Source of the DNA: Rhizodiscina lignyota | Taxonomy: Eukaryota | Assembly (NCBI GenBank): GCA_010015805.1 | Contig: ML978126.1 | Coordinates: 2,108,001-2,163,113, forward strand | Reading direction: 5' to 3' | DNA length: 55,113 nt | In this document: piece by piece, positions 25,585 to 55,113 of the stretch | Layout: each line of letters starts with the position of its first letter | How positions within the stretch are numbered: the stretch's first letter is position 1 | Translations under genes and position numbers: made by a program | The notes under the pieces: model-generated | What the model was told of the DNA's origin: nothing | The model's database searches: none | Seen by the model: only the letters and a program-made list of their open reading frames with translations

Positions 25585-26785
25585 GGAAGTGAGTGAGGCC
25601 AGAGTGTCACGGTAGACGGGAGAATAAAATGTGATATCAGATTGTGACTTCTTTCGCTTGCATCGGTAATGATGAGATGGAACTGCGAGACATTGACTAT
25701 GAAGCTCCAACTCTTCAGGAAGTGGCTAAAACAAATGAATGCAAGCACCAAAGTCACCAAACCGATGTAGTGACAACCATTATTCATGAATATGAGTGAG
25801 CTGGTCCGGTTTTGTATGAGCAACGAAGCCGGACCCGCCGCCTGCGCCGACCCGGTTCGGATTATAGCGAGAGAATCTGTATATCAGAAGGTTGATAATG
25901 CGAGAAAAACGCCGCCGAATGAAGCGGAAGTAGGGACTGGCCTCATATTTGAGCGGTTGTCTGGAACTAAAGCTGAATAAGATGAAGGTGTTTCAGATCG
26001 ACATTGACGTTGTTTTAACCTCCCGAGCCGACCGACGCGGGGACGCGCCACAGCGCTTACATCAAGTGCCTTTGAGGGGAGTCGGATCGTTTAGCGTTAA
26101 GGTTATTGCGGCGGTTATTTTACTCAGCGATCTACTTTCCTCTTCAGTCCCAAGTGCTGACTTCCAATCACCTCTCGCACATGACATCCACCACTCCTCC
26201 ATGCGCAGCCCCTCCCAGCGGTGACGAAAAGCATGCCGCGAGAGTGGGTATCAAAGACATCGGACCTCGTTGGCGCGCCGACTTCCATACCTTTTGAGCC
26301 GACTGCCGCTCGAGCGTCGAATTTCGAGACTGTACGACTACCGACTCCGAAGAAATTGTCGAGAAGAGCTTCGTATTCGTCGGCACTCTCCCTGCCTGGC
26401 CGCAGACTACGCTAAATTCCAATTTCACCTTCAGCCGACTGTTCTGAGTGAAGCAAGGTTCCACTTGCGCAACCTTTCCTTCCAAATACTGCTCTTAGCG
26501 TCTCGTCTGCGTGCGAATCACGGAAATGTCGTGCTTGATTAACGGAGATGCTTTGGAGTACTCAAGCTCAGAGTCCACCGCGCATAATTGCTTTCTCTTT
26601 GTGCGGCTTATATGTCTCGCGCGACAGAATGTCGGGATGCCAGGGAAGTGAATACAGCATTTCCATTTTAATGCCGTTGTCTGCCTCTCTACTTACCCGA
26701 AAGCATTCCTCGTCCTCCGCATTTTGAATTCGTTCTTCTCCAAAGTCTGAAGGTCTGCCAAGTTCCAAGCTACCGCACCGTCAGA

Positions 26786-28249
26786 ATGCTTCCTCGACTG
26801 TCCTGGCTCTGTCTGTCACTCCTGGTTTCTGTTCCACTATGCGCCTCTCAAGCTCAACCGCCGGCTCTACCTGGCACTGGAGCACCTGCTTCGAAATCGG
26901 ACCGCATTTACTGCGGTGACCAGACGTCGAACACCGTCACGGTTATCAGACCGTGGGATAACAAAGTCCTCGGCACCATTGCGCTCGGCCAGCCGCGACT
27001 GTCCTCGTTGCTTAACCCACAATACGTCGACCGCGTCAACTCTCATGGGCTCGGATTTTCACGTGACGGCAAATATATCGTCAATCTGAGCACGACCAGC
27101 AATACCGTCACGGTCATTCGTACCCTTGATAACAGCATTGTGAGCACGACAAGCGTTGGTCGGAATGCACACGAAGCGTTCTTCTCGGCGGACAATCGCA
27201 CTGTCTGGGCCGGTACTCGAGGTGTTGAGACACTCGCAATTGTAGATGGGCTCAAAGGCGGCGTGATTGAAAATATTCCAGCACCCGGCGGACCAAGCAA
27301 AGTGGTCTTCTCCCCGAATAGCGACCTCGCATACGTCAATCACATCCGCGCTGCTTACATTGGCATCTACGACGTTGCGAGCCGAAAGTTGCTGCGTAAT
27401 ATTACCGGACTGGCGGACACTTTCTCCTCCGACATGATGATTGATGCGACAGGCCAGAGGCTCTGGGTTGCGCATAAGATGACTGGTCAAGTGTCTGTAC
27501 TTTCTCTGGTGACGAACAAGGTCGTCGGAATCTTGAACACGGGCCCAGAGACGAACCATCCGAATCATGCCATCATAAATGGGATCCACTACGGGTTTGT
27601 TACCGTGGCGGCAGAAAACACGACCAAGGTGTACACACAAAACGATCCAGAAAAGATTCCCACGCTCGTCGGCGAGATCAGATCCAGCGGAGTTGAGCCG
27701 CACGGGCTGTGGCCAAACGCGGATAACAAAAGAATGTACATTCTGAACGAGCACAGCGATACTGTGGATGTCGCGGACTTGACCAGCTGGCCGTTTAAAA
27801 TCATCGACACTATGAATGTTGGTCAAGAAGGACAAGCGTTGGTATACGTTTCGAATGCGGTCCCCTCCGGCAACGGCACGCAGAACCTTGGAACGCAAGG
27901 TTTGACAGGGAAGCCAGCAATGAATGCCCTGATCAACGTCGATGAAGGGCCGCGGGAGACTTCATGGGAGAATGTGAGCTCTACTGCGCTCATCACCGTC
28001 CGGCCCGCCGCTGGCTTGGAGATGTTTCAAATCATTGGCAGGAACATGGAACTTAATGCCACGTATGTCGCTTCAGCTTCGTGCCTCCATTGCCATGGAG
28101 CTCGGATCCCGTTAGTCGAGTTTGTCGCGAGCACGCCAGTTCCGGGGATGATGGGATGCGGAGGGGCGCCACAAACACTGGCCTTCTTCAAGTTTGACGG
28201 AGTGTACGATATTAAGAGCGTGCAGATACATCGAAAACAGGATGACTAG
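26786..28249 (+). CDS. Secreted YVTN/YncE-like beta-propeller protein
   Basis: Intronless 487 aa with signal peptide. Repeated blades SNTVTVI, HGLGFSRDGK, AHEAFFSADNR, GPSKVVFSPNS and PHGLWPNADNKRMYILNEHSDTVDV. Confidence 0.85.
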   Translation: MLPRLSWLCLSLLVSVPLCASQAQPPALPGTGAPASKSDRIYCGDQTSNTVTVIRPWDNKVLGTIALGQPRLSSLLNPQYVDRVNSHGLGFSRDGKYIVNLSTTSNTVTVIRTLDNSIVSTTSVGRNAHEAFFSADNRTVWAGTRGVETLAIVDGLKGGVIENIPAPGGPSKVVFSPNSDLAYVNHIRAAYIGIYDVASRKLLRNITGLADTFSSDMMIDATGQRLWVAHKMTGQVSVLSLVTNKVVGILNTGPETNHPNHAIINGIHYGFVTVAAENTTKVYTQNDPEKIPTLVGEIRSSGVEPHGLWPNADNKRMYILNEHSDTVDVADLTSWPFKIIDTMNVGQEGQALVYVSNAVPSGNGTQNLGTQGLTGKPAMNALINVDEGPRETSWENVSSTALITVRPAAGLEMFQIIGRNMELNATYVASASCLHCHGARIPLVEFVASTPVPGMMGCGGAPQTLAFFKFDGVYDIKSVQIHRKQDD

Positions 28250-28369
28250 AGAAGTGTTCATGTGTACCGACGTTTATGCCGTTATTTCCGATGAGCAAAT
28301 CGACCGAGTTTTGAAATAATGTCTTGCACTTTATGTGAATTCTGGAAAGTACAACTAATAACAGCCCCC

Positions 28370-29323
28370 TCACTGCAGCTGCAAAGAGAATGATGGCACT
28401 GCGGCCTCGCCATCCTCCAGCAGATCCTCGCTCGATAGCTCTTTCGTCCCGCCCATGTAAACAATTTCCATCGCGTCTTGTGCGTCTGAGGAGTTGTCAA
28501 AGCCTTCTTCATCAGAGTCAATAATATCTTCATTTTCGCTGTCATCCCCAGAGAATGCGAGATGCTTGGCCGTTGCTCTCTTTGGGCCGACGTTTATCAA
28601 AGCCCTCTTGAGGTAGATGCTGTTATCGCGAACAACCTTAAATGCGCGCGAGATCTTGATGACATTGTAAGCCACCGCGAACACTAGCTCATCTTCTGTC
28701 CTCTTGCTTTGCTCCGATCGTACCGACTTTTTAATGCTCGGCGCAAACTGAGGGTCGGCCAAGCCTGGTAGCGGCGAACCTACAGCCTCGAGCACCGGAA
28801 CTGTAACATTGACTCCGGATTTCCGTGAATATACGTTAAACTCTTTCCATTGAGTGCCTTTGGTAGTGAGGAATCCTGCGACGAAATAGGCTCGTGTACG
28901 ACGCGTTCGCTGTAAGAAATTTCGTACGTCTCGGGCGAAGAGCTCATTCTTCATCAGAGTTTCGAAATGTTCAGCAGAGTTCGCCAATGAGTAGCACTTC
29001 AACTCTTCACTTTCAATGATGATGCCATTTTCTGTCGTGTGACTGTACCCGATTCCGATTAGTGACGACAAGCCACCACGGACAGTCCAGCCTGAGGTTC
29101 GCGACAAGAAATCCTTTCGATCTAGCCACACTACGGGGTCCGGGAGGAGATCTGGTATTATGTCTACAGCATTGTGGAGAGGTTCATCTGATCCTGAAGC
29201 AGTATTGGGCGCGGATGACTTGAGTGGAAGGAGTTTGTTGGCGACAACCGCGCCGAGCAACTTCGATATCTCCGATGCCGGCAGGGGCTCCTCCGGGATG
29301 AAATATCGGCGTTCGGACGGCAT
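28370..29323 (-). CDS. Fungal gasdermin-like pore-forming protein (HET-Q1/RCD-1 superfamily), intact
   Basis: 317 aa, intronless. Motif order as in fungal gasdermins: YF..P, LLGAVV..P, a Gly/Ser-rich amphipathic hairpin, a helical VRNFL segment, AYFVAGF, a second hairpin (GVNVTVPV..), and ELVFAVAYNVI. After HLAF comes a 60-aa D/E-rich tail. Lies next to a CHAT protease gene. Recognised by pattern, not by HMM. Confidence 0.75.
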   Translation of the reverse strand: MPSERRYFIPEEPLPASEISKLLGAVVANKLLPLKSSAPNTASGSDEPLHNAVDIIPDLLPDPVVWLDRKDFLSRTSGWTVRGGLSSLIGIGYSHTTENGIIIESEELKCYSLANSAEHFETLMKNELFARDVRNFLQRTRRTRAYFVAGFLTTKGTQWKEFNVYSRKSGVNVTVPVLEAVGSPLPGLADPQFAPSIKKSVRSEQSKRTEDELVFAVAYNVIKISRAFKVVRDNSIYLKRALINVGPKRATAKHLAFSGDDSENEDIIDSDEEGFDNSSDAQDAMEIVYMGGTKELSSEDLLEDGEAAVPSFSLQLQ

Positions 29324-29740
29324 CCTTCTTAAACAGTGAAAGTGCTTCTGATCCGAGTGAAATCTTTGACATCAACCTTTAAGAGAGGAATTTTTGACTC
29401 CACGTCTTTTAGGGCATCGCGAAACCCCGTGGTGGCTTTAGACGCCAGGATGGTGGTGGCTTTTGCGCGGTGGCTGGCGCCTCCAAATCATGAACTCAGC
29501 TCAATTGGGTGTAACCACCTCAGCTCACACCGCACCTTCGAATACGGCAGAAGCAAATCAGGGGCAAGGCTGAGGTCTTGAAATTCCCGTCTCCCCTTGA
29601 TTAACTTCTGATATGGTCGACTCATCTGTGCTGATGAGTCAGTCAACGTGCTTGATGATCTGGACCTGTTGAGTACGTGCGGGCTCAGCCTCTCGGACAA
29701 TTGTAACTGTTCTGGTACGCTTTGATAACGCAGAGTTCCG

Positions 29741-32700
29741 ATGCGACTCAAGATTGTTGCGACCCCTGAGTCCAGGGAGGGCAAGGAGAGACTGCGCTGG
29801 AGAGTCGACGTCTTCTCGGGCGGCCAACTCGTCCGCAATAGTGTGGCACTCGAAGATCCACTGGACGACAAAGATAAGGAGCTCTGTCGATGGTATCTCG
29901 AACAGTATCTGCAAAAGGAACCGTACTCGGCATCTACAGCTAAGAAGGCAACGAGCACTTTGGAAGGCTACGGAAAGTCATTGGCAGAGCAGCTCCAACT
30001 TCCTGAGCTGGTCTTACAGAGTGACAACGAGATCCAGGTCGAGGTTGAGGATGCCACGGTCGATGGAACTCATCCTCATGACTCTGTACATCAGCTATTC
30101 TGGGAATTTCTTGAAGATCCAAGCGTATGGCCGAGCACAGTATCAGCCATCTGCGTCCGCCGAGCAATTGAGACTGCTATCCAACCGCTTCGATTCAGTC
30201 AGAGAATATCGTCCTGGCCATGTTCAGGGCAAGCAAGGCAGAGAGTCAACATCTTGCTTGTTACCGCTCGTGACCTGAGAAGAGATTCTAGTCTTTATAC
30301 CGATATCAGTCCTTCAATAGTTATTGATCTTCTGTCTGAAATCCAACATCGCTTGACTTTGGGAGGGTCTGCAATCGACATTGCCATTGAAGTTGTCCGA
30401 CCTGGCACGCTAGATGCTTTGAAACAACACCTGGCCGACTCCAAACGCATCCACGGTCCTGGGTACTATCAAGTTATTCATTTAGATGTCCATGGGAAAG
30501 TGGGAACTCACAGAGGCGCCCTTCGAAGTTCAAAGTATGGCGTCCTCTACTTTAGCAACCCGGATTCATACAGTGTGAAAGCTATCCGAGCGAGCGAAGT
30601 TGCAAAAGTTGTCGGGCAACACTCAATTCCAATTGTTGTTCTCAATGCCTGCGAGTCCGCTCGGGCAAACGCTGGTGATGATGCGAACATTGCGAAGACA
30701 TTTGCCAAATCGGGTGTCAGGAACGTCCTCGCATGTCTTACAAGGCTTCCCAGAGCGCAATGGCAAAGTTCTTGGAGACATTCTACAGAGAGTTTCTTCT
30801 GGAAGGCCAAAGTTTCACAATCTCGGCAATGGCTGCAAGGCGCGTAATTCGTATGGAGCCAAATCGAGATGCCCGATTCCAAATGAGCACACCTTTGTGC
30901 GACTGGTTCGTTCCCGTCGTCTATTCCTCCGCGGAAGAGATTCATTTCATCCGTCCAGACTCGCTGAACAACCTGCCGGCGGATCCCTCTTTTCAGCAGC
31001 CTACACACACAGATGCCTTGCCTGGACGCGGATTTGATCTACTCCGCCTGGAGAAAGCCCTGGCCACTGGAGGAGTAGTCTATCTCACTGGACCTGCTGG
31101 AGTTGGAAAGACCGCCTTGCTTCACTATGCAACAAGCTTGTGGGTGAAGACGTCCTTTGTCGAAGTTAGTGTTTTCCTCGACTTCTCGCGCCAGAATCTG
31201 CTGTCCATGGACGCGATCCTCGACAGCATAGCTGACCAATTGTCCCAAAGTGACATCACATCTGATACCATCCAGTTCATGTCAGAATCGACGGAAGAGA
31301 AGTCTAAGAGGCTGCTCGATCTCTTGCACGACTCGCGAGTGGCCTTTATTTTGGATGGACTCCTCGACTTGCGATACAAAAATGATGCGGAGCCCAGGAA
31401 CCAGACGGCTGCGCCCTTGCTACAATTCCTGCAACTGGCACGAGCCCAGCGGCATGATCTTCAGGAACCAGATCATATTATGATCATCTCTGGCTGCGTA
31501 AAGAATTTTCCAGACAACCTTGCACTGGGCCGGCTGCCCGTATACGAGCTGAAAGGACTCTCGATCTCAGAATCCGTGGATATCATCCATCAAATCAACA
31601 CAGTTGGATAGCCAAGCCAACTCGATCCAGCAGGGAACAACTTGGCTGAGTCTCGAAAAATCGAACCATTCGTGCATCTGTTGCAAGGCAATCCTGCTGC
31701 AATAATGCAGTTCACCTGGCTAGGACGAGACTCGGGATGCTCACCGCGGCAAATGTACGATATAATGCACTCTGAAAACCTCATGCACTGTTTGGACCTC
31801 AGCTTCCTTAATAAACGTGACGGACTGTTTGATCAATTTAGGGGCTTCATTTCGATGCTGTCGGTAGAGGGCTTTGCGACCTTGCTCATGCTGGCCTGGT
31901 ACTGGTATGAGGGGCCCAACATATCTACCTTTGTTGATATGCTTGTGACTTCAAAGATTGCTTCAAACAAACAAGGAATTCTCGACGCACTTGAAATAGC
32001 CTCTCAATGGGGCTATGTTGAGTTCGACGCTGCCAGTCACATTTCCTGGATCCATCCTCTGTTCACACTTTACGCACGGATAGTCGCAAGTAGTACGTAT
32101 TCGAGATTGATATTCAATTCCAGTGATCGGAGGTGCCATTTCCAAAGGAAGTTTGCAGCACTGACAATGGGTCATCTCGTAGCGAATGGAGATGAGTACA
32201 TCAGTTGGCCCGAGGCCCCGGTATCTGGCCTTGAGTATGCCGTACGACTTATGTGCGCTCTTCTCAGCCATTATGCTGACCGCGATCGCGATAAAAACTA
32301 CTGGAGCTATGTGATACTGTTCCTCGCCACATGCAAAGACTCGCACCAACGCATTTCCGGTCGCCTCATGTCCCGTGGCCTGACTTATCCTGGCATCTGG
32401 GATGATTTCGACCTTTGCAAACAGAACTTCATCTTCACCTTGAAGATCTGTCGCGGCCGTGGCCCACTTCCGCTGCCATCAATCGGATGGCCGACAAGTG
32501 CAATCGTTGGCCAGGCCCATTTCGTTCGCAAGGTATGCAGCGCCGAGGAAATTCGAATCATTGCTGGATACCTGGAAGAATTGCTGAACGGGGGCATTGC
32601 CATGAGCAAAACATTCAGCCCCAAAGATGCTGTCCAGCCCAATGATCTGCATGACCTTGTTTCCATTGCTGCATCTCTGGCGGAAATCCATCGTCGAGAA

Positions 32701-34491
32701 CTCCCATTCGTGGAAAGGCGGCACATGGAGATTGTTAAACACGCATTGGAGATCCTTGAGGAATCCGAGGCTGCATTTGGGAAGTCGACCGACCCGCAAG
32801 TCGCATGTTCTAAGTCGCTGCTGTCCATAGTCAAGGCAACGGCGCTTCTCGAGAACGGCGAAACAGCGGAGGAAGCGAAATTGGAAATGCACAAGGCATC
32901 AATAGAAATGCAAAAGGTGTTTGCGACTCCAAACCCGGAGCTCAACTCCCGGGTCGAAGAGTTTTTGAAAGGAAAGGATCCCGAGGAAGCTAAGCTGTGG
33001 AAAACCTTTATGCAATCGTTCCCCACCAGCTTCGGCTCGTTTGAAGACGCATGGGATGTCATGGCGAAAGGAACTCTCGGCGAACCAATCCTCGAGTTAC
33101 CCGAATCCATCAGACGGAATGTGCAAAACACCGAGGTGCCTGTCATGGATTTCTGGAGAGCCTTTCCAGAGCACCTGGAAAAACACGATACCCCAAAGTT
33201 CTAGCTTAATGCGCTCGAGACGGAGATGAACAAGGGTCATTGGCTTCGCGCGATTGGTATTCATTCAGGGTTTACGTTGAAAAGCATTGAGAAATTGGAT
33301 TTTGAGGAGGCAAGACGGCATGTGGATATTCAAGCAGACCTGGCAAAACAACACGATTCGGAAGGAACTCTCCTCGACAAAACCGCCGATGCGAAAAAAT
33401 TCATTAACAGCTTCGAAGCGATGACCAAGTCCTTTTTCCCCGATAAAAGCCCCACACAAGCTACTTTCGAAGCCGTTGAAGAATTCGCAAATGCCACGAC
33501 GGAGATGATGCGAGAGCACAACCTTGACTCCCCCGAGCAGAATGAGATTATGGAATATATGCGTGAAAGCTTCGTTCAAGACAGCGACCCAGCGCTGAAT
33601 CATAACCAGGCTCCGGGTATTTTCAACGTCACTGGCGAAACTCATGCCTGGATGCAGTCTCTTCTTGCAAGGCATCTGACAAAGGCCTCGCGGAGTACAG
33701 AATACCGACAAAGATGGCTGCGCGCATTATCCAGGATGTTCAGGACATTGAGAGAGCTGGAACATGGCGAAGATGAAGACGATGTAGACAAGATCTTCCA
33801 GAGTTTGAACGAGCTGCGAGAGATGTCGGAGGATGACTACTACACCGAATTTGTCAACAAAGACAAAATTGACAAAAGACGCTCATGGAACACTGAACGG
33901 CTATTCCGTAGTGCCATAATTCCATTGAATGACATGGTAAAGACGAACAAATTCTCCGAAGCGCGCGAATTCTTGGCAAAAGCAGAAACGGTCGCTAAGT
34001 TGGGCCCTCTGAACAACCCTCAGTTCGAGAAACTCCTGCCGCAACTCCCGGACTTGGTGGAGGGACAGCATCTGCTTTCCTTGGGTCAGCCCGCACAGGA
34101 TGCTCTTGACGCACGCGACTATCCCGGGGCCATTACCATGACCAGCCAGTATGGCAGTTCGATCGTCGAGAAAGAGGGACTTTGTAAAGACATTTACTAT
34201 ATGCAAGACTTTTTTCAAGCGCTGCAGGAGTTGGACTTGATCATGGGTGCGTCACGGTTACAGGGTCTGAGAGACCGTCTCGAGCAGCAGAAGAGTGTCA
34301 GGCACAATGGTCGGGATACCTCAACACCAGCAGGACATGTCACTGAAAGCCTTGTACACCAGTGTGGGAAGGCTGCCGCCGGCGTTCTTAATCGATTGTC
34401 TACCAGTGGTGCGAAGTGTGCTCGGGAATTCGCTAGTGTCTATGTCAAGGTAATGAGGGACGCGGCGACGGGTACGACTTTTACATTCTGA
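29741..34491 (+). pseudogene. CHAT (caspase-like) protease - STAND/NB-ARC-like NTPase - long helical C-terminus (NLR-like), interrupted
   Basis: RWYLEQY, EVVRPGT, catalytic HLDVHG and VVLNACES, and CHAT end DWFVPVVY. Walker A GPAGVGKT, Walker B AFILDGL, LQGNPAAI (GxP) and WIHPLF. One-base frameshift at 30731-30733; in-frame TAGs at 31609-31611 and 33202-33204. About 1583 aa if repaired. Confidence 0.85.
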
Positions 34492-35417
34492 CCATGATGT
34501 AATTACCGATCTGTATTTTAAATCGTCCGATTTCTCGTTCCACGCCTTCTCCTCACTTCGGGTTTCTTCTCCTCCACCTTCTAGGAATGAGGGACCGTCA
34601 GCCTCATGCAAACATGGATACAGAAGGTGAGACGCTCGAAGGACGCCCTGACCATGCCTGCCTTCTTCCTAAGCGTATCAATCTCATTCTCCTCATTTGA
34701 GAGGCTCGTGAAGATTGTATCAATGATATCTGCACCGCATATCGGAGGAGTGTTTGCGGCGCCGCGCGCTAGAGAGGACGAAGACGAGGACGGAAGTGAT
34801 GCCTTCCAATGTGTGCAGCGATATACATGCCAGTGACCAACTCGACTCAAGTCAGCCGCGTTCGCACCTGCAGTTCCCATTAGTATTTGGAAATTCTAAA
34901 CACGAATTACAAAAAAAGCGTGTGAAATTCCCATTTCAAAACAAGAAGTGAGAGGGGAACATATGCAATGTCCAGCAGAAGCTCGTGGAGACGTTCGCAA
35001 GGTTGTGCGCGTAGACTTGGGTACATGTAAGAGATTGGTAGTGTCTATTTGATGGTAGTAACGCTTGATGGGTGATGTCCCGGCCTTTGTGCAGGACTGT
35101 GCGGCCGATGACGAACAAGAGCAAAAGCCTCCGGTTTGGAGGCGTTTCTCTGTCGCGGAGCTTGTTGTAGTGGTTTTCAATGTTCGCCCACCAACGCGAC
35201 TCGCGGCACAGGATAGAGTGTCCGGATCAGAGTGACCGTACTCAGTAATAGCAGAATATTAAAAACTTGTGTCCTGTATTATCTAGAGAATATAGACTGG
35301 TATGGCTCAGTGTCTTACTGTCTTCCGCTTTTCAACTCATTTTGCTCTTCAAAGTTCTCCCTTTCCAATCTCCAAGAACATAAACCCATGCGACGTTGAG
35401 CTTTTACCTGTTCGCAA

Positions 35418-37323
35418 TCATATGGTCCCTCTCGATACTACGCGAATGCTTAATGGCTGCTTCATCCTTGCGAAAAAGAATGACCTTGACACAGGAACCT
35501 CGGGTCTCGACTCGGGATCAATGGTAAGCTCAACATCGAAGTAGAGCAACAGCGTCCCAACCAATTTTACAAGCTGTCATAGCTCCAGTCAGCACAAAGG
35601 ACATTTGAAGTATATTCAATCGAAGGGAAATGTGAACGGAGGAGAATCTTACCTCCATCATAGCGACGTTTTTGCCGATGCACTGGCGGACACCATGACC
35701 AAAAGGAATCCAGTACTTGCTCATCTCCTCCGGCGTCAATCCCTCCGAGCCGCTGATCCACCGATCTGGATTGAATATATCCGCATCCGGGCCAAAGTTT
35801 GAGGGATCCAGGTGCACGGGCAGGGCAGAGACTCCAACCGTGGTCTTTGCAGGGAAATACATTCCGGCGATAGTTCTCCCTCCCTCTGGCACGTACCTTG
35901 GCAAGTGGATTGTTGCAGGTGGCGTTAGTCGAAGGGACTCTTTGATGCAAGCTTGGAGATATGGGAGAATGGCGAGACCGGAATATGTCGGTGGAGACTT
36001 GTCTGCTTCATAGCTCCGATCTGGGAATCTGCTTCGAAGTTCTTCAGTCAAGCGTTTGTAAACGTCTGGTCGCCGAAGGATATGGTAAAAGGTATATGTC
36101 AAGGCTGAAGAAGTCGAATCGCTCCCTGCCACGCTGAACAGAGCGTCAGTATTTGCAAGGACAGACTTGGCGGGGAAGAGAGAAACTGTGCGTACATGCT
36201 GGAGAATGCTTCAGTGCGTAGATCAATCATATCCAATTTCTCTCCTGTCACAGGATCAATAGCTTCGATAAGGCGGCCCAGAAGATCTTTTCGGCCGGTA
36301 TCTTTCTCTTTGCGTCTCTCAACTCGTGATCTTGTCAGCTGTTCCAAAGTCAGTTGTCTCCGCGCTACTTCAATGCTAGATCAGGCATCACCTCTTTCAG
36401 TCTTTCACGCCCAGCCTGCAGGCTCTGAAGCCAGGGAATAGGCAGAAACGTCCATTTGGTATACGGAATAAGTTCGGGCATCATCCCAATCGTTGAGCCG
36501 AATTCAATCTGAATGCCAATGAGGCGAATATGCTCATCCTCCACACCACTCTCAAGCATCCCAAAGCCTTCGCTGAAAGCCTGAGTTTGAGTCAGCATAA
36601 CCAGCTCCGCGCTGCAAGAACAGGAGATCGAAGCTAACCAGTTCACCGATCACATCGAAAGCGAAGAAGTGACACCACTTTCCCAAATTCGTTTCCTCCC
36701 CGGATGCCGCAAAGCCTGCCATTTTTGATAGCAGGATCTGAAGCCGAGCCTGGACAAACTCTTCCATTGATTGGAGGGCATTCATGGAATAGCCGTGAGA
36801 CACAATCCGTTTTCGCTTCGCATGAGGAAATGGATCGCGCTGTCCGAATATCGTGGGACGAAATGCCGTGAATGCACTGGTTGGAAAGTTACTTTGAGCT
36901 CCGACATGGTCTTCATACATCATACTCGTAATATTTTGTCTGGGAAACGCATTAGCATACGAAAGAAGATGGAGAAGATTATGAATGCAATACTTTTAGA
37001 AAATCTCGTCCGTTTGTACTGCTGTATATCTCTCGAACCGCCGATCCATCAGAAATCATCACCTCCGAAGGCGCAATACGGACGATTGGTCCATATTTGC
37101 GATGCAGCTCCAGGATTCTCTCGTGGAAAGTCCCTTTGCTAATATAATAGAGTTTCCAAACAGGAGAAAGAGATGCCCAGAATGGACCTGGAACTTTTGA
37201 CAGTGGCGCAAAAGTTCTTTGATAGATCAAGTACGCCAGGCCCCAAGTGATGAGCAATACCACGGGAAGGCTCAGTAGCCACGGGAGCGGGATGTGAGAT
37301 AGACGCAAAGCATTTCCTTCCAT
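35418..37323 (-). CDS. Cytochrome P450 (benzoate 4-monooxygenase-like clan, substrate unknown)
   Basis: N-terminal TM + PLSKVPGP, LHRKYGPIVRIAP, I-helix AGSDST, K-helix ESLR, FNPDRW and heme FGHGVRQCIG. Seven exons can be joined in frame with GT-AG introns, including a 14-nt exon. Confidence 0.93.
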
Positions 37324-37560: not shown

Positions 37561-39909
37561 TCAAAGGGAGAGCTCGAGAGCTGACCAGTCCCATCCGGAA
37601 GGAAGCAAGTCGCGAGGTAAGCCCGTCCCGAAGAGCAGCCCATCGAGCTCAGAAAAGTCTACTGTAGTCACATCCTGTGCAAAGTCCGACGGTCGTGGTG
37701 ACCAAACAGTACTATCTCTCGCACCAGAAACCTGATCCTGGGCTGCAACTTCGGCGCATCCGTCTCTGTTCCCATTGTTGCGGGCTTCAGTTTGCAAAGG
37801 CTCCGCACTTACTCCCTTTCTGCGAAGATTCCTCAACATCTCCACGTATCGCGCAGCAAGAGCGCTGACACTACTCGCTGTCTCGAGAAACTCCATTCCA
37901 AGTTCCAAGACTTCGTCATCCCGACCGTACTCAAGTAAATTCCTCTTTGCAGGATCCATGAACTGGAGCGTAAGCAAGATTCCCATGGCAGTGAAGATAT
38001 CTGAAATGTAGTCAATATACACCCATAGCGTCTACGATCGCCATTCTTACAATGTAGGTTGTACCACAAAGAGTTCAGCAGGCCGCGACGAGATTCTGCA
38101 TGGATCTTACGTATTGTGTCGCATGCTGCCTTGATGCAACTGTTTGACGATGCTATGGCAACCGTTTGGTAGAAGGTGTCGGCGATTTCATGGCGGTGGA
38201 AGAAGAGCAATGATTGTCGATGCAGTAGAAGACGAATATTAAGAAAACTACAACTCCGTCAGATCTTTCAAGGATTACAATTCGCACAGTGCACTCACCG
38301 GATATAGATGACGTTGCGTTGTTGTTGATATTTCGAGCCGTCGATCGCATTGGACGGCCACTTGAGATGCGGAGAGACACCTTCCCACCATGCAAGTAGT
38401 TCACCATCCAGAAGAACCGCAGCAGAAAGCGTTCGAGAAACGATTGAAGCAGGAGAGGAAAAGCGGCCGGCGATCTGCTTGTCTCTGCCAACACCCCAAG
38501 GATTATACAGATCCGTCAACATAGTGTCGACAATGTGAGATAGTTTTATCGTCTGGTGGAAGAAATCCGTGATAGAGGGAGCACCTCTTGGCTGCCGAGG
38601 CAGAAACGAGTCGGCGGTGATGTACTGATCGTCAACGTTTATCGGCAGTTCGACTGTAGCACCCTCCGCACTTCGTATAGTCGGAGGTCGTCCAAGTTTC
38701 ATACTCAGCGTACGATCGATAACGAAACAGCCCCACCATATGCGCTTTCTCATCTCATTTTCAATTGCTGAGATGGAAGTGTCCTGCTTGTTCAGGTGAA
38801 GTCCAATGCTAAAGGCAGAGCGGATCATGAGTCCAACAAGATTCCAGCACTCGTTAAGATCCATTGCTCCCTGAAGAGTATGACACATCAGAAGCAGAGC
38901 TTGTACGATCTCAAGCGAGCCAGTGCCAAACATGACCTGATCCAGAAAATATCGCGCCCGGTTGCAGAAAATACTTGTTGTCTCTGAGAGTTCTGCTCTG
39001 GGGATCGTGCTACAAAATTCACAACCGAGTGTGAAGACCATATTCAGAAGTGCCAGCCACGATGGCTTCGAAGCTTGCGGCGATGATTGCTGCGACCACA
39101 GTCTTTCATAGGTAGATCGAAACGAAGGCTCGTGGATAAAGGGATAGAGGGGGTGGACATGATCGAAGTACGCATCGACCAGACTGTCGGCGTCGGAGCG
39201 TGAGGGCAACTCATAACGATCGGTAGTTGATCGTGGACTGATACCGAATCTTGAACTCGAACCTGGGGAAGATATTGAGACGAGTCGACGTTTTCTTCGA
39301 TGCTGATCCGAAGCCATGTCATTGTTTCGTGGTTGAATAGTCGAGACATATGCTATCGTAGAAGAGTCGCCGAAATAACCGTTGTGAGAAGTGGATGACA
39401 GAGTTGAGGTTTGCGATTCATTGCCGTCGTTCAGTAATGCCCCATCAGCCGGCACAGTGAGAACAGCGCCCTCAGTCGCCGAATGATGCTGAAAGCCATT
39501 CCTTCGGTCCCCATTGAAAGCATCATCAAGTAGAGCATGATCTACCGAAGCAGCGCTGTGTACATTCTCTGATATGTCGATGCCGCTTCTTGTATGTTCA
39601 GATGAACTGGCACGATCAACGTGTTGTGGAGTCCTTCGTTCTTCTTGCTGCCTCACATGGACGAGTGCTTCGAGCCTTGAACAGAGAGAAGACTGAGTTA
39701 ATATCTGAGAAGACGACATTTCAGAGAACATCTTACTCTTTCAGAGATAAATCAGTAGTAATCAACGCGTCGTAACCACACGTCAGTCCGCGAGCCCGGC
39801 AGGCTCCACAGCGCGGTTTGCCGCCATCACATCTGTTCTTTCGTTTTCGGCAATTTGTACATGCTCGACCAGATCCCAATCTTTGGGCCGATATGCGCTC
39901 TGCAGCCAT
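37561..39909 (-). CDS. Zn(II)2Cys6 transcription factor with Fungal_trans middle homology region
   Basis: First exon (missed by the ORF track) reads MAAERISAQRLGSGRACTNCRKRKNRCDGGKPRCGACRARGLTCGY. Later LVDAYFDHVHPLYPFIH, SLEIVQALLL, IGLH and RKRIWWGCFVIDR..KLGRP. Several introns. Confidence 0.92.
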
Positions 39910-40145: not shown

Positions 40146-41885
40146 TTAGATATCCTTGTGAAATTGTGGCTGTCCAAGCCTTTCCCTCCATCTCTCGCCC
40201 CGGAACATGAGCACCACAATGCCCACAGACGCCAAAACAGTAATCAATGCCATTGTAAGCCATGCCCATTCAATTCCAATGCGGTTGGCAAAGGGAAGTC
40301 TATAGAATTTGTTAGTCGCAATTGCATCATGCATTCTGGGAAGAGTTTACTTACGCGTAGAAGCCTAACGGGAATGCAAATATCTGCCTGCCAAAATTGT
40401 ACAAGGTACTCATTTCCGCAGATTGTGGCTTATAACAGTCACTGCAATATGCATAGCTGACGGTGGTCACGAGTTGGAGTCCGAAGCTCGAGATGGCCAT
40501 GCCCATGACTGGGCCCATCCAATGCGTCTTGTGCTGCAGGGTGACTCCGTAGATGATGATGCCGGCCGGACAGAGGAGCAGACTTCCAAGTGCGGCAACC
40601 AAACGGGCCTCAGGCTTCCTTTTGCCGTCATGCCTCTTTGCGTATCGGTACATGAACCAATCCGAGAATGGGCCGGAGAAGATCTCTCCGAGCGCCGATC
40701 CGAGGAGTAGCGGTAGTCCAAGCATCAGTCCGATAATGCCGGTCTTGAAATGATACGTCTTGGTGAAGAGGATCGCAACCGTGACGGCTGGCAGGATTGA
40801 CGCGTATGCAAACGAAACGATGTAGTAGATGCAGGTCAATGTGACGGAAGGGTACCGCAGCATCTCGAAAGGCCGGACGATATCGCGGATATGTACTCTT
40901 CTGCCTCTAAGAGCGTTCTTGCGGAAGCCAAAGAGCATTTGGAAATACGTACGTTCGCGGTGGAAACTCAGGGCCTCCTCAGAGCGTGCGAACAGCGTCT
41001 CTGGAAAGGCGAAGATCATGGTGACGAGGGCGGCGGAGTTGACTATTGCAGGAAACCAATAGCACCAGCGCACTCCAGCTGCCTGTGCAAGATATCCTCC
41101 AATGACCGGGGCAACGTGAGCGCCGTTGGTGAGGAAGACTGTGAAAACACCCATCGTAGTCCCCCTCTGATTTTAATTAGCCGGTATCAGTCAAGGAAGT
41201 CTCTGAATCATACCTCATGCAAGAAGAAGAGGTCGTTCACCGTTGCGGCTCCGAGGGACATGGCAGCGCCAACACCCAAGCCGCTGACAACTCTTGCAAA
41301 AATGAGGGTACCCCATGATTTTGCGACCGCACTGCCAATGGTACCAAGAATACCAATGACCGTTGAGCAGAGGTACACAGGACGCCGTCCGTACACGTTG
41401 GCAAGCGGAGTCCAGAACAATGGTGACACTCCGACGACAACAATGACCGTTGTTGTTTGATATGATGCACTTCCGACGGGGATCTTGAACAATTGCGCAA
41501 GTGGCACCAAAGCTGGATTGACGACGGAAGAGTTGAAAGGGCCCAGCATCGCAAGGAACGATGCTTGGAGCAGAACGGTGAATTTGAGCCATGTCGGCCA
41601 ATTCTGTGCGATGTATTAGCATCTCTTTTCTTCATTGGTCGATTGCAGGCTTGCCAGTGGGTCGTCTCTGAAGCTACTGGGCGCAGGTACTAAAGCGAGT
41701 CCATGTCTGTCGCGACGAACCTCCACCCCCTTTTGTTGCGCATCGGCTCCAGGTCCAGGGCTGAAAAGCTCAACGTGTGTGGTCTCCGTCTTTCCTTCCA
41801 TGATTTCGTCGTGACTGCGGAGACGTACATGATGTGAGGGTGGAAGATGCGACTCTTTAACCATGACCTTGTTCGAATGCCCCAT
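40146..41885 (-). CDS. MFS transporter (DHA1-like drug:H+ antiporter family)
   Basis: DDPL|NWP, ANVYGRRPVYL (motif A), DLFFLHE|RG, FPET, GPFSDW and KPEARL. Three introns, the first of them GC-AG. Confidence 0.92.
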
Positions 41886-54400: not shown

Positions 54401-55113
54401 GCTATACTAGACTATAAAGTAGTTATAGTAGGCTAATACTATTACTAAGTACCTATTTAATAAATTAAACGCTATATATACGCTTAGTAGTATTACTAGC
54501 GTTAGCTAGTAGCTATAAGGCCTTAGCCTTAGCCTTAATATATAGGAGTAGTAGTAGTAAGATAGAAGAAAAGAGGTAGAGAAGGTAGAAGAGTATAGCT
54601 AGCTATATTAGTAATAGTAGCTATTACTATTATTATTATTACTATTATTATTAATAATAGTAGTAAAAGAAGAAGTAGTAGTAGTAGTAATAGTAGTAGT
54701 AATAATAGTAATAGTATAAATATACCTTTTTATTTACTTAAACCTACTATACTTAAAAATAGTAGTAGTATATAGGCCTATTAAAACTAAGACTAAGGCT
54801 AAAGCTAGGGAAAAGCTAAGGCTAAAGTTAAAGTTAAGGTTAAAGTTAAAGTTAAAGTTAAAATCCCTATTAATAGTAGGATAATATAGTATTTACTAGT
54901 TTTTCTAAACCCTTTTACCTACTATAGTATCTTTATCTACTATATTACTAGTACTACTACTAGTACTACTACTAGTACTACTATTAGTACTATTACTACT
55001 ACTAGCTATAAGTATAGCTATAAGTATAGCTACTAGTATCCTTTTTATACTATAAATCTCTCTTTTACCTAACCTACCTTTATATTAACTAAACCTTACT
55101 ATTCTAACTATAC
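51480..55113. repeat. AT-rich RIP-degenerated repeat / transposon relic block
   Basis: Abrupt drop in GC, pervasive TA, near absence of CA/TG beyond about 51550, no ORFs in the track, internal direct repeats differing mainly by transitions, and many microsatellites. Confidence 0.92.
51766..53745 (+). repeat. Imperfect direct repeats inside the RIP block
   Basis: Unit A (about 51766-51945, CTTAGATTTA..GGGTAAAGTAT) recurs at about 53166-53345. Unit B (about 51993-52185, AAGAGTATAGCTTAC..TAAATTATAA) recurs at about 53346-53525 and 53551-53745. Confidence 0.85.

What the first reader, a model, noticed from the sequence alone, without database searches (positions are those of the whole stretch)
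29741..34491. The activator is broken while the gasdermin is intact: relic, allorecognition allele, or recoding?
Seen in sequence: three lesions in an otherwise continuous 4.75-kb frame. The first is a missing base at 30731-30733 (CTC GC ATG TCT; RNVLA/MSYK), downstream of the catalytic Cys but before the end of CHAT. The others are GGA-TAG-CCA at 31609 and TTC-TAG-CTT at 33202. The partner gene has no lesion. Inference: (a) recent inactivation, with both TAGs being CAG>TAG RIP-type changes (favoured); (b) a gasdermin-only haplotype that dies on fusion with strains carrying an active protease, analogous to het-Q1/het-Q2; (c) UAG>UGG A-to-I restoration as known in Sordariomycete sexual stages, which would not repair the frameshift; (d) assembly error at the frameshift. 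A weak 69-nt in-frame intron (33136-33204) could remove the second TAG but has no branch site.
Basis: partly seen in the sequence, partly recalled or inferred. Interest (0 to 1): 0.72.

Follow-up and report, generated by a model that had tools for sequence, protein, structure and literature searches.

The report
Broken protease-receptor gene beside intact gasdermin
In this wood-dwelling fungus, the gene for a caspase-like protease receptor that would normally switch on a neighbouring pore-forming cell-death protein has recently been knocked out by ordinary mutations, which makes it a commonplace young pseudogene.

Summary
Window 29741-34491 (+) is one CHAT-NACHT-helical NLR-like gene of Rhizodiscina lignyota (a Dothideomycete, not a Sordariomycete). 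It carries a 1-nt deletion at 30731-30733 and in-frame TAGs at 31609 and 33202. I add a fourth difference: about 69 codons are missing in frame near 34137. An independent read-derived contig (word depth about 153) is identical over 28000-35000, so this is not an assembler error, although the run is probably the assembly's own sample. All lesions lie in sequence that is collinear and coding in 24 homologues, so no intron rescues them. The public gene model hides the damage with a late start and spurious introns. The divergent neighbour (28370-29323, -) is an intact 317-codon gasdermin: its AF2 model has pLDDT 80, and all 9 Foldseek hits with E<=0.001 are gasdermin pores. Best reading: a recently inactivated gasdermin activator (0.85). 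RIP origin is unsupported, because the gene's RIP indices are normal. Editing to Trp is contradicted, because no homologue has Trp at either site and the frameshift would remain. The allorecognition idea is untestable here and mechanistically weak. It has noted broken CHAT-NLR genes in other genomes. This is an ordinary member of a known kind.

The parts
28370..29323 (-). Intact gasdermin-like gene (317 codons plus TGA), the presumed substrate and executioner
   Evidence: Uninterrupted ORF. Identical to annotated protein P0016 and 40-55% identical to 10 homologues of 313-352 aa. The family has 401 representative clusters at E<=1e-3. The 111-sequence profile hits RCD-1-1 (8jyz_A) at E 5.2e-5. 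The AF2 model has pLDDT 80.4 and pTM 0.74. All 9 Foldseek PDB hits with E<=0.001 are gasdermin pores, the best being the RCD-1 pore at 1.5e-10. No Pfam hit.
29324..29740 (.). 417-bp shared intergenic region between the two divergently oriented genes
   Evidence: Coordinates. A promoter function is inferred from the head-to-head layout only.
29741..34491 (+). CHAT-NACHT-helical NLR-like protease gene, disabled (read-through length 1583 residues)
   Evidence: Four abutting frames. Pfam CHAT E 3.3e-10 and NACHT E 4.2e-6. 42-45% identical over its whole length to P0006, P0007, P0176, P0177 and P0178, which are 1571-1699 aa.
30080..30860 (+). CHAT (caspase-like) protease domain. His251 at 30491-30493 and Cys304 at 30650-30652 are both retained. 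The frameshift falls inside the domain.
   Evidence: Pfam match covers residues 114-337, profile positions 33-234 of 289. The HLDVHGK and LNACES motifs were located and are conserved in homologues. The domain end is approximate.
30731..30733 (+). Lesion 1: one base missing from an Ala codon (GC|ATG). The upstream frame then runs 38 out-of-frame codons to a stop at 30845-30847.
   Evidence: The alignment column is Ala in 23 of 24 homologues and Gly in 1, and flanks are collinear. The context CCTCGCATGTC is not a homopolymer.
31075..31410 (+). NACHT nucleotide-binding domain. Walker A GPAGVGKT at 31090-31113 and Walker B-like AFILDGL at 31342-31362.
   Evidence: Pfam NACHT 27.1 bits (cut-off 26.7) and NPHP3_N 26.5 bits (cut-off 24.8). 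Motif coordinates.
31609..31611 (+). Lesion 2: in-frame TAG (read-through residue 624) in a variable linker after the NACHT domain
   Evidence: In the 24-homologue alignment only 2 sequences have a residue in this column (Val) and 22 are gapped. An ungapped reading against P0176, P0177 and P0178 puts Ser there. No Trp or Gln.
33136..33204 (+). The 69-nt 'intron' of the public gene model, which is not a real intron
   Evidence: P0005 lacks exactly these 23 residues. All 24 of 24 homologues have at least 80% occupancy in these columns. The donor GTGCCT is weak and there is no CTRAY branch site.
33202..33204 (+). Lesion 3: in-frame TAG (read-through residue 1155) in the helical C-terminal domain
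   Evidence: Homologue column: K 8, R 7, Q 4, N 2, E 2, M 1 of 24, with no Trp.
34135..34140 (+). Junction of an in-frame gap of about 69 codons relative to homologues (possible lesion 4). Position is uncertain by a few codons.
   Evidence: Gap blocks of 23, 41 and 5 columns after residue 1466, occupied in 19-20 of 24 homologues. Between win residues 1440 and 1500 the window has 60 residues where 19 homologues have 107-129 and 2 have 183-189. First seen. Coordinates.
34489..34491 (+). Native TGA stop of the receptor gene
   Evidence: The C-termini of homologues align with the unspliced reading ending here. The public model instead splices 34450-34623 into unrelated sequence.

Best explanation
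This is a two-gene gasdermin cell-death cassette of the known fungal het-Q1/het-Q2-like type, and its activator gene has recently become a pseudogene. In the intact ancestral state (inferred from the family), a large receptor with an N-terminal caspase-like CHAT protease, a central NACHT ATPase and about 950 residues of helical sensor would oligomerise on an unknown cue. It would activate its protease, cut off the inhibitory C-terminal tail of the neighbouring gasdermin, and let the gasdermin form membrane pores. In the sequenced strain of Rhizodiscina lignyota the receptor gene has four changes. It has a 1-nt deletion inside the CHAT domain, two nonsense codons, and an in-frame loss of about 69 codons in the sensor. 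From its own start it can encode at most a 368-residue fragment that lacks the last fifth of the CHAT domain and everything downstream. The gasdermin ORF is still whole. The lesions are ordinary spontaneous mutations. The inactivation is young, of the order of 1% neutral divergence, because the protein sequence shows no extra decay. Shown here: the lesions, their presence in the reads, their position in homologous coding sequence, the domain identities and the gasdermin fold. Inferred: the activation mechanism, the loss of function and the timing.
For: The lesions are real and present in the reads. Searches show them, and a Logan contig at word depth 152.7 is identical over 28000-35000 with 0 differences and 0 gaps. 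Homologues are collinear across all three breaks (24 homologues). The frameshift column is Ala in 23 of 24. The 23 residues that the annotator's intron removes are occupied in 24 of 24. Every mechanical GT..AG candidate across the frameshift or the first TAG would delete aligned, conserved residues. Domain identities come from Pfam: CHAT E 3.3e-10 and NACHT E 4.2e-6, with the His/Cys dyad and Walker A retained. The neighbour is a gasdermin: profile hit to RCD-1-1 at E 5.2e-5, and all 9 Foldseek hits with E<=0.001 are gasdermin pores. The cassette type is known. Clave et al. 2022 (PMC8851545, passages read) report 353 of 1,884 fungal gasdermin genes near CHAT protease genes, some with NLR architecture, and a CHAT domain that cleaves its neighbouring gasdermin. 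The inactivation looks young. The window matches 73.1% of columns where P0006=P0007=P0008, against 70.4% and 67.9% for the reciprocal tests. It mismatches at 6 of 91 columns invariant in the other nine sequences, within the range of 1-11. In this ORF 3.7% of substitutions create stops, so two stops imply about 54 substitutions, or about 1.1% (rough, wide error). Two TAGs are unremarkable: TAG makes up 43.5% of possible new stops here, so the chance that both are TAG is about 0.19.
Against: No RNA or protein data exist for this locus (one search listed no RNA run), so silence or non-function is not shown. Only one genome of the species could be examined, and run X1 is probably the same sample as the assembly, so a mutation private to the cultured strain cannot be excluded. 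The absence of accelerated divergence fits a very young pseudogene, but it equally fits a gene still under some constraint. The in-frame gap of about 69 codons could be a tolerated lineage-specific loss of repeat units rather than damage. The gasdermin stays intact, which needs explaining. The possible explanations are too little time, use by another protease, or selection.
Confidence: 0.85

Rival explanations
1. Balanced gasdermin-only haplotype acting in allorecognition. Under this reading the broken activator is one of two maintained haplotypes, and fusion with strains that carry an active protease kills the heterokaryon, as with het-Q1/het-Q2.
For: het-Q shows that a gasdermin and a protease can form an incompatibility pair (PMC8851545, passages read). 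The gasdermin ORF is retained while its partner is broken. A HET-domain gene lies 9 kb away. That is only a weak hint that the region holds non-self-recognition genes.
Against: In het-Q the two genes are idiomorphs at one locus, and the protease is a free, unregulated domain. Here both genes sit in cis and the protease is embedded in a full receptor. An intact haplotype therefore already carries gasdermin plus receptor without dying, and meeting a broken-receptor haplotype adds nothing new (inference). The allele carries four independent changes (three disabling lesions and an in-frame gap), which looks like decay after loss of constraint rather than a maintained allele. No population data are available.
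Confidence: 0.07
2. The two TAGs were made by RIP (repeat-induced point mutation), which would make RIP the cause of the inactivation.
For: RIP works or has worked in this genome. The block 51500-55113 has GC 27%, TpA/ApT 2.15 and (CpA+TpG)/(ApC+GpT) 0.04. Any transition that yields TAG (from CAG or TGG) is by construction a CpA>TpA change.
Against: The gene itself shows no RIP signature: TpA/ApT 0.46 and composite index 1.44, against 0.56 and 1.34 for window 1-50000. No duplicate partner was found. The only other R. lignyota relative found is 31% identical in protein. The first protein search returned only this locus from the species. The nearest homologues have N, K, R, R and K at the second site and Val or Ser at the first. 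That favours transversions from AAG or TCG as much as CAG>TAG. RIP does not make 1-nt deletions or 207-nt deletions. The RIP-like block is 17 kb away.
Confidence: 0.1
3. The gene is functional through recoding. This would need sexual-stage A-to-I editing of UAG to UGG at both stops, and/or splicing or ribosomal frameshifting across the breaks.
For: Both stops are TAG, the triplet that fungal editing favours (PMC11156358, abstract and passages read). In the minimum-energy fold the first TAG sits in a 9-nt hairpin loop. A -1 ribosomal slip at GCA|TGT would restore exactly the homologous ...LAMSYK... reading.
Against: Editing cannot repair the frameshift. Trp is found at neither site: 0 of 24 homologues at the second TAG, and at the first only 2 have a residue (Val), so editing would not restore an ancestral residue. 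Genome-wide editing is reported for Sordariomycetes and Pyronema, was not found in Aspergillus nidulans or Botrytis cinerea, and is undetermined elsewhere. This fungus is a Dothideomycete. The local folds are no better than shuffles: z -0.48 (69 of 200 shuffles fold as well) and z +0.46 (131 of 200). There is no X XXY YYZ slippery heptamer at C CTC GCA TGT, and the downstream fold has z -0.68. All intron candidates delete conserved residues.
Confidence: 0.02
4. Sequencing or assembly artefact: the real gene is intact.
For: Single-base indels are a classic assembly or polishing error. Only one run could be examined, and it is probably the assembly's own source.
Against: An independent contig built from the reads at word depth 152.7 agrees at every one of 7,001 positions. 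The deletion is not in a homopolymer. Three separate lesions plus a gap of about 69 codons would need four independent errors.
Confidence: 0.03

Closest known systems
het-Q1/het-Q2-like gasdermin-protease gene clusters of filamentous fungi, CHAT subtype (Clave et al. 2022, PNAS, PMC8851545; for example Podospora anserina Q1-6/Q2L-6)
   Same: A gasdermin-like gene lies directly beside a gene for a multidomain protein with a caspase-like CHAT protease. The receptor has an NLR-like build with a P-loop NOD and a long repeat or helical region. The gasdermin has a short C-terminal tail. The paper (passages read) reports 353 of 1,884 fungal gasdermins near CHAT genes and shows that a CHAT domain processes its neighbouring gasdermin.
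   Different: Here the protease gene is broken by a frameshift, two stops and an in-frame gap. The domain order is CHAT-NACHT-helical, whereas Q2L-6 is TPR-CHAT, and the NLR example named in the passages I read is S8/NACHT/WD40. No Pfam repeat family is detected in the C-terminal 950 residues. Rhizodiscina did not occur in the paper's cluster table (file 1). It appears only in file 3, with 4 gasdermin genes.
RCD-1 gasdermin-like proteins of Neurospora crassa (PDB 8jyz, 8jyy) and HET-Q1 of Podospora (PDB 9uv9)
   Same: They share the pore-forming gasdermin fold. The best Foldseek hit is the RCD-1 pore at E 1.5e-10. The family profile hits RCD-1-1 at E 5.2e-5 and RCD-1-2 at 0.013.
   Different: Sequence identity is only 11-14%. 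The HET-Q1 pore scores only E 1 by profile. RCD-1 is activated by meeting an antagonistic allele rather than by cleavage (PMC8851545 passage). This protein has a longer, acidic, low-confidence tail (residues 274-308 have pLDDT below 50).
Decayed NLR genes of fungi (birth-and-death turnover of NLR repertoires; recalled background, no call)
   Same: A large NLR-type gene with a few disabling mutations and an otherwise recognisable reading frame. The scan has noted other broken CHAT-NLR genes in other fungal genomes (unchecked notes).
   Different: Here the decayed receptor is the dedicated partner of a still-intact executioner gene, so the cassette is half dead.
Restorative A-to-I editing of premature UAG codons in Fusarium graminearum pseudogene-like genes (PMC10776026, search listing and abstract only; review PMC11156358, passages read)
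   Same: In-frame UAG codons inside an otherwise conserved fungal ORF.
   Different: The class of fungus is different and has no reported editing. No ancestral Trp is present. An accompanying frameshift cannot be fixed by editing.

Membership tests
Fungal gasdermin-like proteins (HET-Q1/RCD-1 family): neighbour gene 28370-29323 | Gasdermin N-terminal pore-forming fold | tested here: met
   The AF2 model from 111 sequences has pLDDT 80.4 and pTM 0.74. All 9 Foldseek PDB hits with E<=0.001 are gasdermin pores: RCD-1, bacterial GSDM, GSDMD, Trichoplax GSDM, GSDME and GSDMA3.
Fungal gasdermin-like proteins (HET-Q1/RCD-1 family): neighbour gene 28370-29323 | Sequence relationship to characterised fungal gasdermins | tested here: met
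   The A2 profile hits RCD-1-1 at E 5.2e-5 and RCD-1-2 at 0.013. HET-Q1 scores only E 1. The single sequence and the 11-sequence profile found nothing.
Fungal gasdermin-like proteins (HET-Q1/RCD-1 family): neighbour gene 28370-29323 | Match to Pfam Gasdermin (PF04598) or Bact_GSDM (PF26164) | tested here: not met
   0 of 11 members at E<=10 and 0 of 111 members at E<=0.01 match either family. The Atlas gave Bact_GSDM and Gasdermin only as leads.
Fungal gasdermin-like proteins (HET-Q1/RCD-1 family): neighbour gene 28370-29323 | Short inhibitory C-terminal tail released by proteolysis, and pore formation | not testable with these tools
   The tail after about residue 247 is acidic and has low confidence (274-308, pLDDT below 50). 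It ends in a conserved S-F-x-L motif (S311 invariant, F312 and L314 nearly so in 11 sequences). Cleavage and pores need experiments.
HET-Q2-like CHAT protease / NLR partner of gasdermins: gene 29741-34491 | CHAT caspase-like domain with catalytic His and Cys | tested here: met
   Pfam CHAT E 3.3e-10, 40.3 bits against cut-off 24. His251 in HLDVHGK and Cys304 in LNACES are conserved in homologues. The domain is interrupted by the frameshift at profile position about 234 of 289.
HET-Q2-like CHAT protease / NLR partner of gasdermins: gene 29741-34491 | Central NOD (NACHT/NB-ARC) with P-loop | tested here: met
   NACHT 27.1 bits (cut-off 26.7) and NPHP3_N 26.5 bits (cut-off 24.8), both only just above threshold. 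Walker A is GPAGVGKT. Homologues carry precomputed NACHT, NB-ARC or AAA_16 labels.
HET-Q2-like CHAT protease / NLR partner of gasdermins: gene 29741-34491 | C-terminal tandem repeats (TPR, ANK or WD40) | tested here: inconclusive
   No Pfam repeat family at E<=0.01 in the C-terminal 950 residues or so. The region is conserved in length and sequence among homologues. No structure was predicted for it.
HET-Q2-like CHAT protease / NLR partner of gasdermins: gene 29741-34491 | Adjacent to a gasdermin gene | tested here: met
   The genes are head-to-head, 417 bp apart. Three homologue pairs share contig lengths. That is a hint only, because adjacency in those contigs could not be read.
HET-Q2-like CHAT protease / NLR partner of gasdermins: gene 29741-34491 | Open reading frame able to give the full protein | tested here: not met
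   One frameshift and two in-frame stops, confirmed in a read-derived contig.
Unitary pseudogene | Disabling lesions inside sequence that is coding in relatives, not removable by splicing | tested here: met
   (24 homologues: collinear flanks, and 24 of 24 occupied across the annotator's intron).
Unitary pseudogene | Signature of relaxed constraint (faster protein evolution) | tested here: not met
   No acceleration: 73.1% against 70.4% and 67.9% in the three-way test, and 6 of 91 mismatches at otherwise invariant columns, within the range of the others. This is compatible only with a recent loss.
Unitary pseudogene | No full-length transcript or protein | not testable with these tools
   No RNA run was listed for this DNA.
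Fungal restorative A-to-I editing targets (premature UAG corrected to UGG) | Ancestral or orthologous Trp at the stop position | tested here: not met
   Second TAG column: K 8, R 7, Q 4, N 2, E 2, M 1 of 24. First TAG column: Val in 2 and gaps in 22.
Fungal restorative A-to-I editing targets (premature UAG corrected to UGG) | Organism belongs to a group with demonstrated sexual-stage mRNA editing | tested here: not met
   The organism is a Dothideomycete. The review passages list only Sordariomycetes and Pyronema as positive, list A. nidulans and B. cinerea as negative, and call other classes undetermined.
Fungal restorative A-to-I editing targets (premature UAG corrected to UGG) | A>G changes at the site in RNA reads | not testable with these tools
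   No RNA run available.
het-Q-type allorecognition idiomorphs | Gasdermin and protease on alternative haplotypes of one locus, polymorphic in populations | not testable with these tools
   Only one genome is available. In it both genes are in cis, unlike het-Q (passage).

The most novel reading that the evidence does not exclude
The half-dead cassette is not mere decay. It would be one arm of a presence/absence polymorphism of the activator in Rhizodiscina populations. The gasdermin would be kept intact because it can still be fired, either by intact receptor alleles met after hyphal fusion or by a paralogous CHAT protease in the same genome (for example P0200, NA57DRAFT_73836). That would capture an early stage in the birth of a het-Q-like incompatibility system from a cis-acting immune cassette.
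Probability: 0.06. Interest if true: 0.6.

Novelty: new member of a known kind. Interest (0 to 1): 0.25.

Why it matters
The finding mainly serves as a clean, checked example. It shows that a gasdermin cell-death cassette can lose its activator while the executioner stays whole. It also shows that automatic annotation hides this. The public model starts after the first stop, splices out the second stop and drops the protease and ATPase domains, so the gasdermin looks like an orphan. Clave et al. report that 20% (373 of 1,884) of fungal gasdermin genes have no protease neighbour (passage). Cases like this one suggest, by inference and untested, that some of those orphans have decayed, unannotated partners. 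For the biology of this fungus, one of its four reported gasdermin genes (supplement file 3 of that paper) probably cannot be triggered by its own sensor.

Tried and rejected
- No whole genome is held for the window, so paralogues and other gasdermin clusters could not be searched at DNA level.
- Only one run was listed and no RNA holder, so expression, splicing and editing could not be examined.
- A scan of metagenome contigs with the gasdermin alignment matched 114 pattern stretches, but none was a relative. The loci of the homologues, and hence true synteny, could not be read.
- Pfam did not recognise the gasdermin in the single sequence, in 11 members or in 111 members.
- The single sequence and the 11-sequence profile found no PDB relative.
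- The AF2 model from 11 sequences failed with pLDDT 31.6. Only the 111-sequence alignment worked.
- RNA folds around both TAGs and downstream of the frameshift were no better than shuffles: z -0.48, +0.46 and -0.68. I therefore drew no editing hairpin or frameshift stimulator from them.
- Mechanical GT..AG candidates exist: 10 were listed across the frameshift and 9 across the first TAG. All were rejected because they would delete residues aligned in homologues. For example, 31603-31650 removes the conserved LAE of the LAE-x-RK motif and leaves a linker shorter than in any homologue.
- I considered -1 ribosomal frameshifting, because it would restore the homologous reading. I rejected it for lack of a slippery heptamer (context).
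- I considered TAG as a sense codon and rejected it. The neighbouring beta-propeller ORF ends in TAG, and long TAG-free ORFs fill the window.
- Scan notes near the locus and by sequence returned nothing.
- Rhizodiscina was absent from the per-gene cluster table of Clave et al. (file 1), so their classification of this gasdermin could not be read. The paper's SI appendix PDF could not be read.

Full report
**What is there**

The stop-to-stop ORF list shows four abutting + strand frames: 29729-30847, 30682-31611, 31612-33204 and 33205-34491. Translated, they read as one protein.
- Pfam finds a CHAT caspase-like protease domain. E is 3.3e-10 at 40.3 bits (cut-off 24), over residues 114-337 and profile positions 33-234 of 289.
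- Pfam also finds a NACHT/NPHP3_N P-loop domain, at 27.1 bits (cut-off 26.7) and 26.5 bits (cut-off 24.8).
- The catalytic His251 (30491-30493) and Cys304 (30650-30652) and the Walker A motif GPAGVGKT (31090-31113) are all retained.
- About 950 further residues match no Pfam family.

**Organism and public annotation**

The best database hit is a 962-aa protein annotated in Rhizodiscina lignyota (P0005, NA57DRAFT_56846).

P0005 is identical to the window's reading, with three exceptions:
- It starts at Met656 (31705), after the first TAG.
- It lacks exactly the 23 residues encoded by 33136-33204.
- It swaps the last residues for unrelated sequence through a further intron, 34450-34623.

The public model therefore hides the lesions and drops both the protease and the ATPase domains.

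**Check of the three lesions**

I aligned the read-through (X at each break, built in a script from the window) with 9 homologues and then with 24 homologues.
- The 24 are all proteins of at least 1,387 aa, plus P0008 and P0012, which are also.
- I left out the five short or partial hits (P0188, P0189, P0195, P0198, P0199) and the three TPR-type hits (P0201-P0203).
- I also left out P0009, P0010, P0011, P0013, P0014 and P0015. Five of these (all but P0014) were in the first alignment.

Results at each break:
- *Frameshift.* The flanks are collinear (...GVRNVL-X-MSYKAS... against ...GVKNILAMVYKAS...). The column is Ala in 23 of 24 and Gly in 1. So exactly one base of a GCN codon is missing at 30731-30733.
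- *First TAG (residue 624).* It lies in an indel-rich linker. Only 2 of 24 have a residue in that column (Val). An ungapped reading against P0176, P0177 and P0178 places Ser there.
- *Second TAG (residue 1155).* The column is K 8, R 7, Q 4, N 2, E 2, M 1 of 24. The five closest homologues have N, K, R, R and K.
- Trp occurs at neither site.
- *The 69-nt 'intron'.* The 23 residues it removes are occupied in 24 of 24 homologues. The stretch has a weak donor (GTGCCT) and no CTRAY branch site.

Other mechanical GT..AG candidates across the frameshift (10 listed) or the first TAG (9 listed) would all delete aligned residues.

**A fourth difference**

After residue 1466 (about nt 34137) the window lacks about 69 residues, in blocks of 23, 41 and 5 columns. 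These blocks are occupied in 19-20 of 24 homologues and include a conserved W-x-D-G segment. The gap is in frame and might be tolerated, so I list it as a possible fourth lesion. A 6-residue gap after residue 559 is occupied in all 24 homologues.

**Are the lesions in the reads?**

One public run holds the stretch. Its Logan contig is 63,346 nt long at word depth 152.7. It covers 28000-35000 with 0 differing letters and 0 gaps. The run is probably the sample the assembly came from. This rules out an assembler or polishing artefact, but it does not rule out a mutation private to the sequenced culture. The deletion context, CCTCGCATGTC, is not a homopolymer.

**The partner gene**

The ORF 28370-29323 (-) is 317 codons and begins 417 bp from the receptor's start, head-to-head.
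- It has 10 homologues of 313-352 aa at 40-55% identity.
- A profile search finds 401 representative clusters at E<=1e-3.
- Pfam recognises none of 111 members.
- A profile of the 111 sequences hits the Neurospora gasdermin-like RCD-1-1 at E 5.2e-5, RCD-1-2 at 0.013 and the HET-Q1 pore only at E 1.
- An AF2 model from 11 sequences failed with pLDDT 31.6.
- The model from 111 sequences reached pLDDT 80.4 and pTM 0.74.
- All 9 of its Foldseek PDB hits with E<=0.001 are gasdermin pores. The best is the RCD-1 pore at 1.5e-10.

So the neighbour is a gasdermin and its ORF is whole.

There is one caveat. It has Ala at position 25, where at least 90% of the 111 family members have Arg. It ranks 6th most deviant of 111 at the nine most conserved columns.

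**Known context**

Clave et al. 2022 (PMC8851545; passages read) report the following:
- 80% of 1,884 fungal gasdermin genes lie within 10 kb of a protease gene, and 353 (19%) of these are of the CHAT type.
- Some partners have NLR architecture.
- A CHAT domain processes its neighbouring gasdermin in Podospora.
- 373 (20%) of the gasdermin genes have no protease neighbour.

Their supplement file 3 lists 4 gasdermin genes for the Rhizodiscina genome. The genus does not occur in their cluster table, file 1.

Three gasdermin homologues and three receptor homologues list equal contig lengths (14301, 52988 and 15634). This hints at conserved linkage, but I could not read those contigs (one search found nothing).

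**How old, and by what mutations?**

The window protein is not more diverged than its relatives.
- It matches 73.1% of the columns where P0006=P0007=P0008. The reciprocal tests give 70.4% and 67.9%.
- It mismatches at 6 of 91 columns invariant among the other nine. The other sequences range from 1 to 11 mismatches.

With kappa=2, 3.7% of single-base substitutions in this ORF create stops. Two stops therefore correspond to roughly 54 substitutions, or about 1.1% (a rough figure with wide error). TAG is the commonest possible new stop here at 43.5%, so two TAGs have a chance of about 0.19.

RIP does not explain the lesions.
- The gene has TpA/ApT 0.46 and (CpA+TpG)/(ApC+GpT) 1.44, against 0.56 and 1.34 for window 1-50000.
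- The AT-rich block 51500-55113 has 2.15 and 0.04, so RIP exists in this genome but has not marked this gene.
- The only other R. lignyota relative found is 31% identical (P0200), far below what RIP needs.
- Every transition that yields TAG is CpA>TpA by construction, so 'RIP-type' does not discriminate.

**Recoding rivals**
- Editing of UAG to UGG would put Trp where no homologue has it.
- Editing cannot mend the frameshift.
- Editing is reported only for Sordariomycetes and Pyronema. A. nidulans and B. cinerea were negative, and other classes are undetermined (PMC11156358, passages).
- Local RNA folds are no better than shuffles, with z of -0.48 and +0.46. The first TAG does fall in a weak 9-nt loop.
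- A -1 ribosomal slip would restore the homologous reading. However, there is no slippery heptamer and no notable downstream structure (z -0.68).

**Allorecognition rival**

In het-Q the gasdermin and a free protease are idiomorphs. Here both genes are in cis, and the protease is part of a full receptor that is presumably auto-inhibited. An intact haplotype already holds both without dying, so a broken-receptor haplotype adds no new interaction (inference). This reading cannot be tested without other isolates.

**Verdict**

This is a known kind of two-gene cell-death cassette whose activator has recently become a pseudogene through ordinary mutations. The executioner ORF is still intact. It has noted broken CHAT-NLR genes in other genomes (unchecked).

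Noticed in passing
window 51500-55113: AT-rich block (GC 27%) with extreme RIP indices: TpA/ApT 2.15 and (CpA+TpG)/(ApC+GpT) 0.04. This is probably a RIP-degraded repeat at the window's end. It shows that RIP acts or has acted in this genome.
   Followed up: partly
window 31705-34623 (public model P0005, NA57DRAFT_56846): The public gene model is an annotation artefact. It starts after the first TAG and splices out the second TAG with an unsupported 69-nt intron. It also replaces the native C-terminus through a further intron, 34450-34623. As a result the protease and NACHT domains are unannotated.
   Followed up: yes
window 29249-29251 (-), gasdermin residue 25: The gasdermin has Ala where at least 90% of 111 family members have Arg (LGRVV motif near the N-terminal helix). 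Within its 11 closest relatives it is the second most deviant at conserved columns, with 9 of 96 against a median of 2. This may be a first sign of relaxed constraint or simply lineage drift.
   Followed up: partly
window ~34135-34140: An in-frame gap of about 69 codons in the receptor's C-terminal helical domain relative to 19-20 of 24 homologues. The length is roughly two 34-residue repeat units.
   Followed up: partly
window 18412-20739 (+): A 775-codon ORF with a HET (heterokaryon incompatibility) domain, Pfam E 1.4e-30, lies about 9 kb upstream of the cassette.
   Followed up: no
window 26672-28249 (+): An ORF with weak YNCE-like/lactonase beta-propeller matches (E 2e-6) and an N-terminal hydrophobic stretch lies directly downstream of the gasdermin gene. 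It ends in TAG.
   Followed up: no
P0200 (NA57DRAFT_73836), another scaffold of the same species: A 1,498-aa CHAT-domain paralogue that is 31% identical to the window's CHAT region. Clave et al.'s file 3 lists 4 gasdermin genes for this genome. Other cassettes may therefore be intact.
   Followed up: no
window 35530-36210 (-), 38295-39740 (-), 40351-41172 (-): A cytochrome P450 exon-sized ORF, a fungal-specific transcription factor and an MFS transporter lie downstream. This is ordinary gene-dense surroundings, possibly a small metabolic cluster.
   Followed up: no
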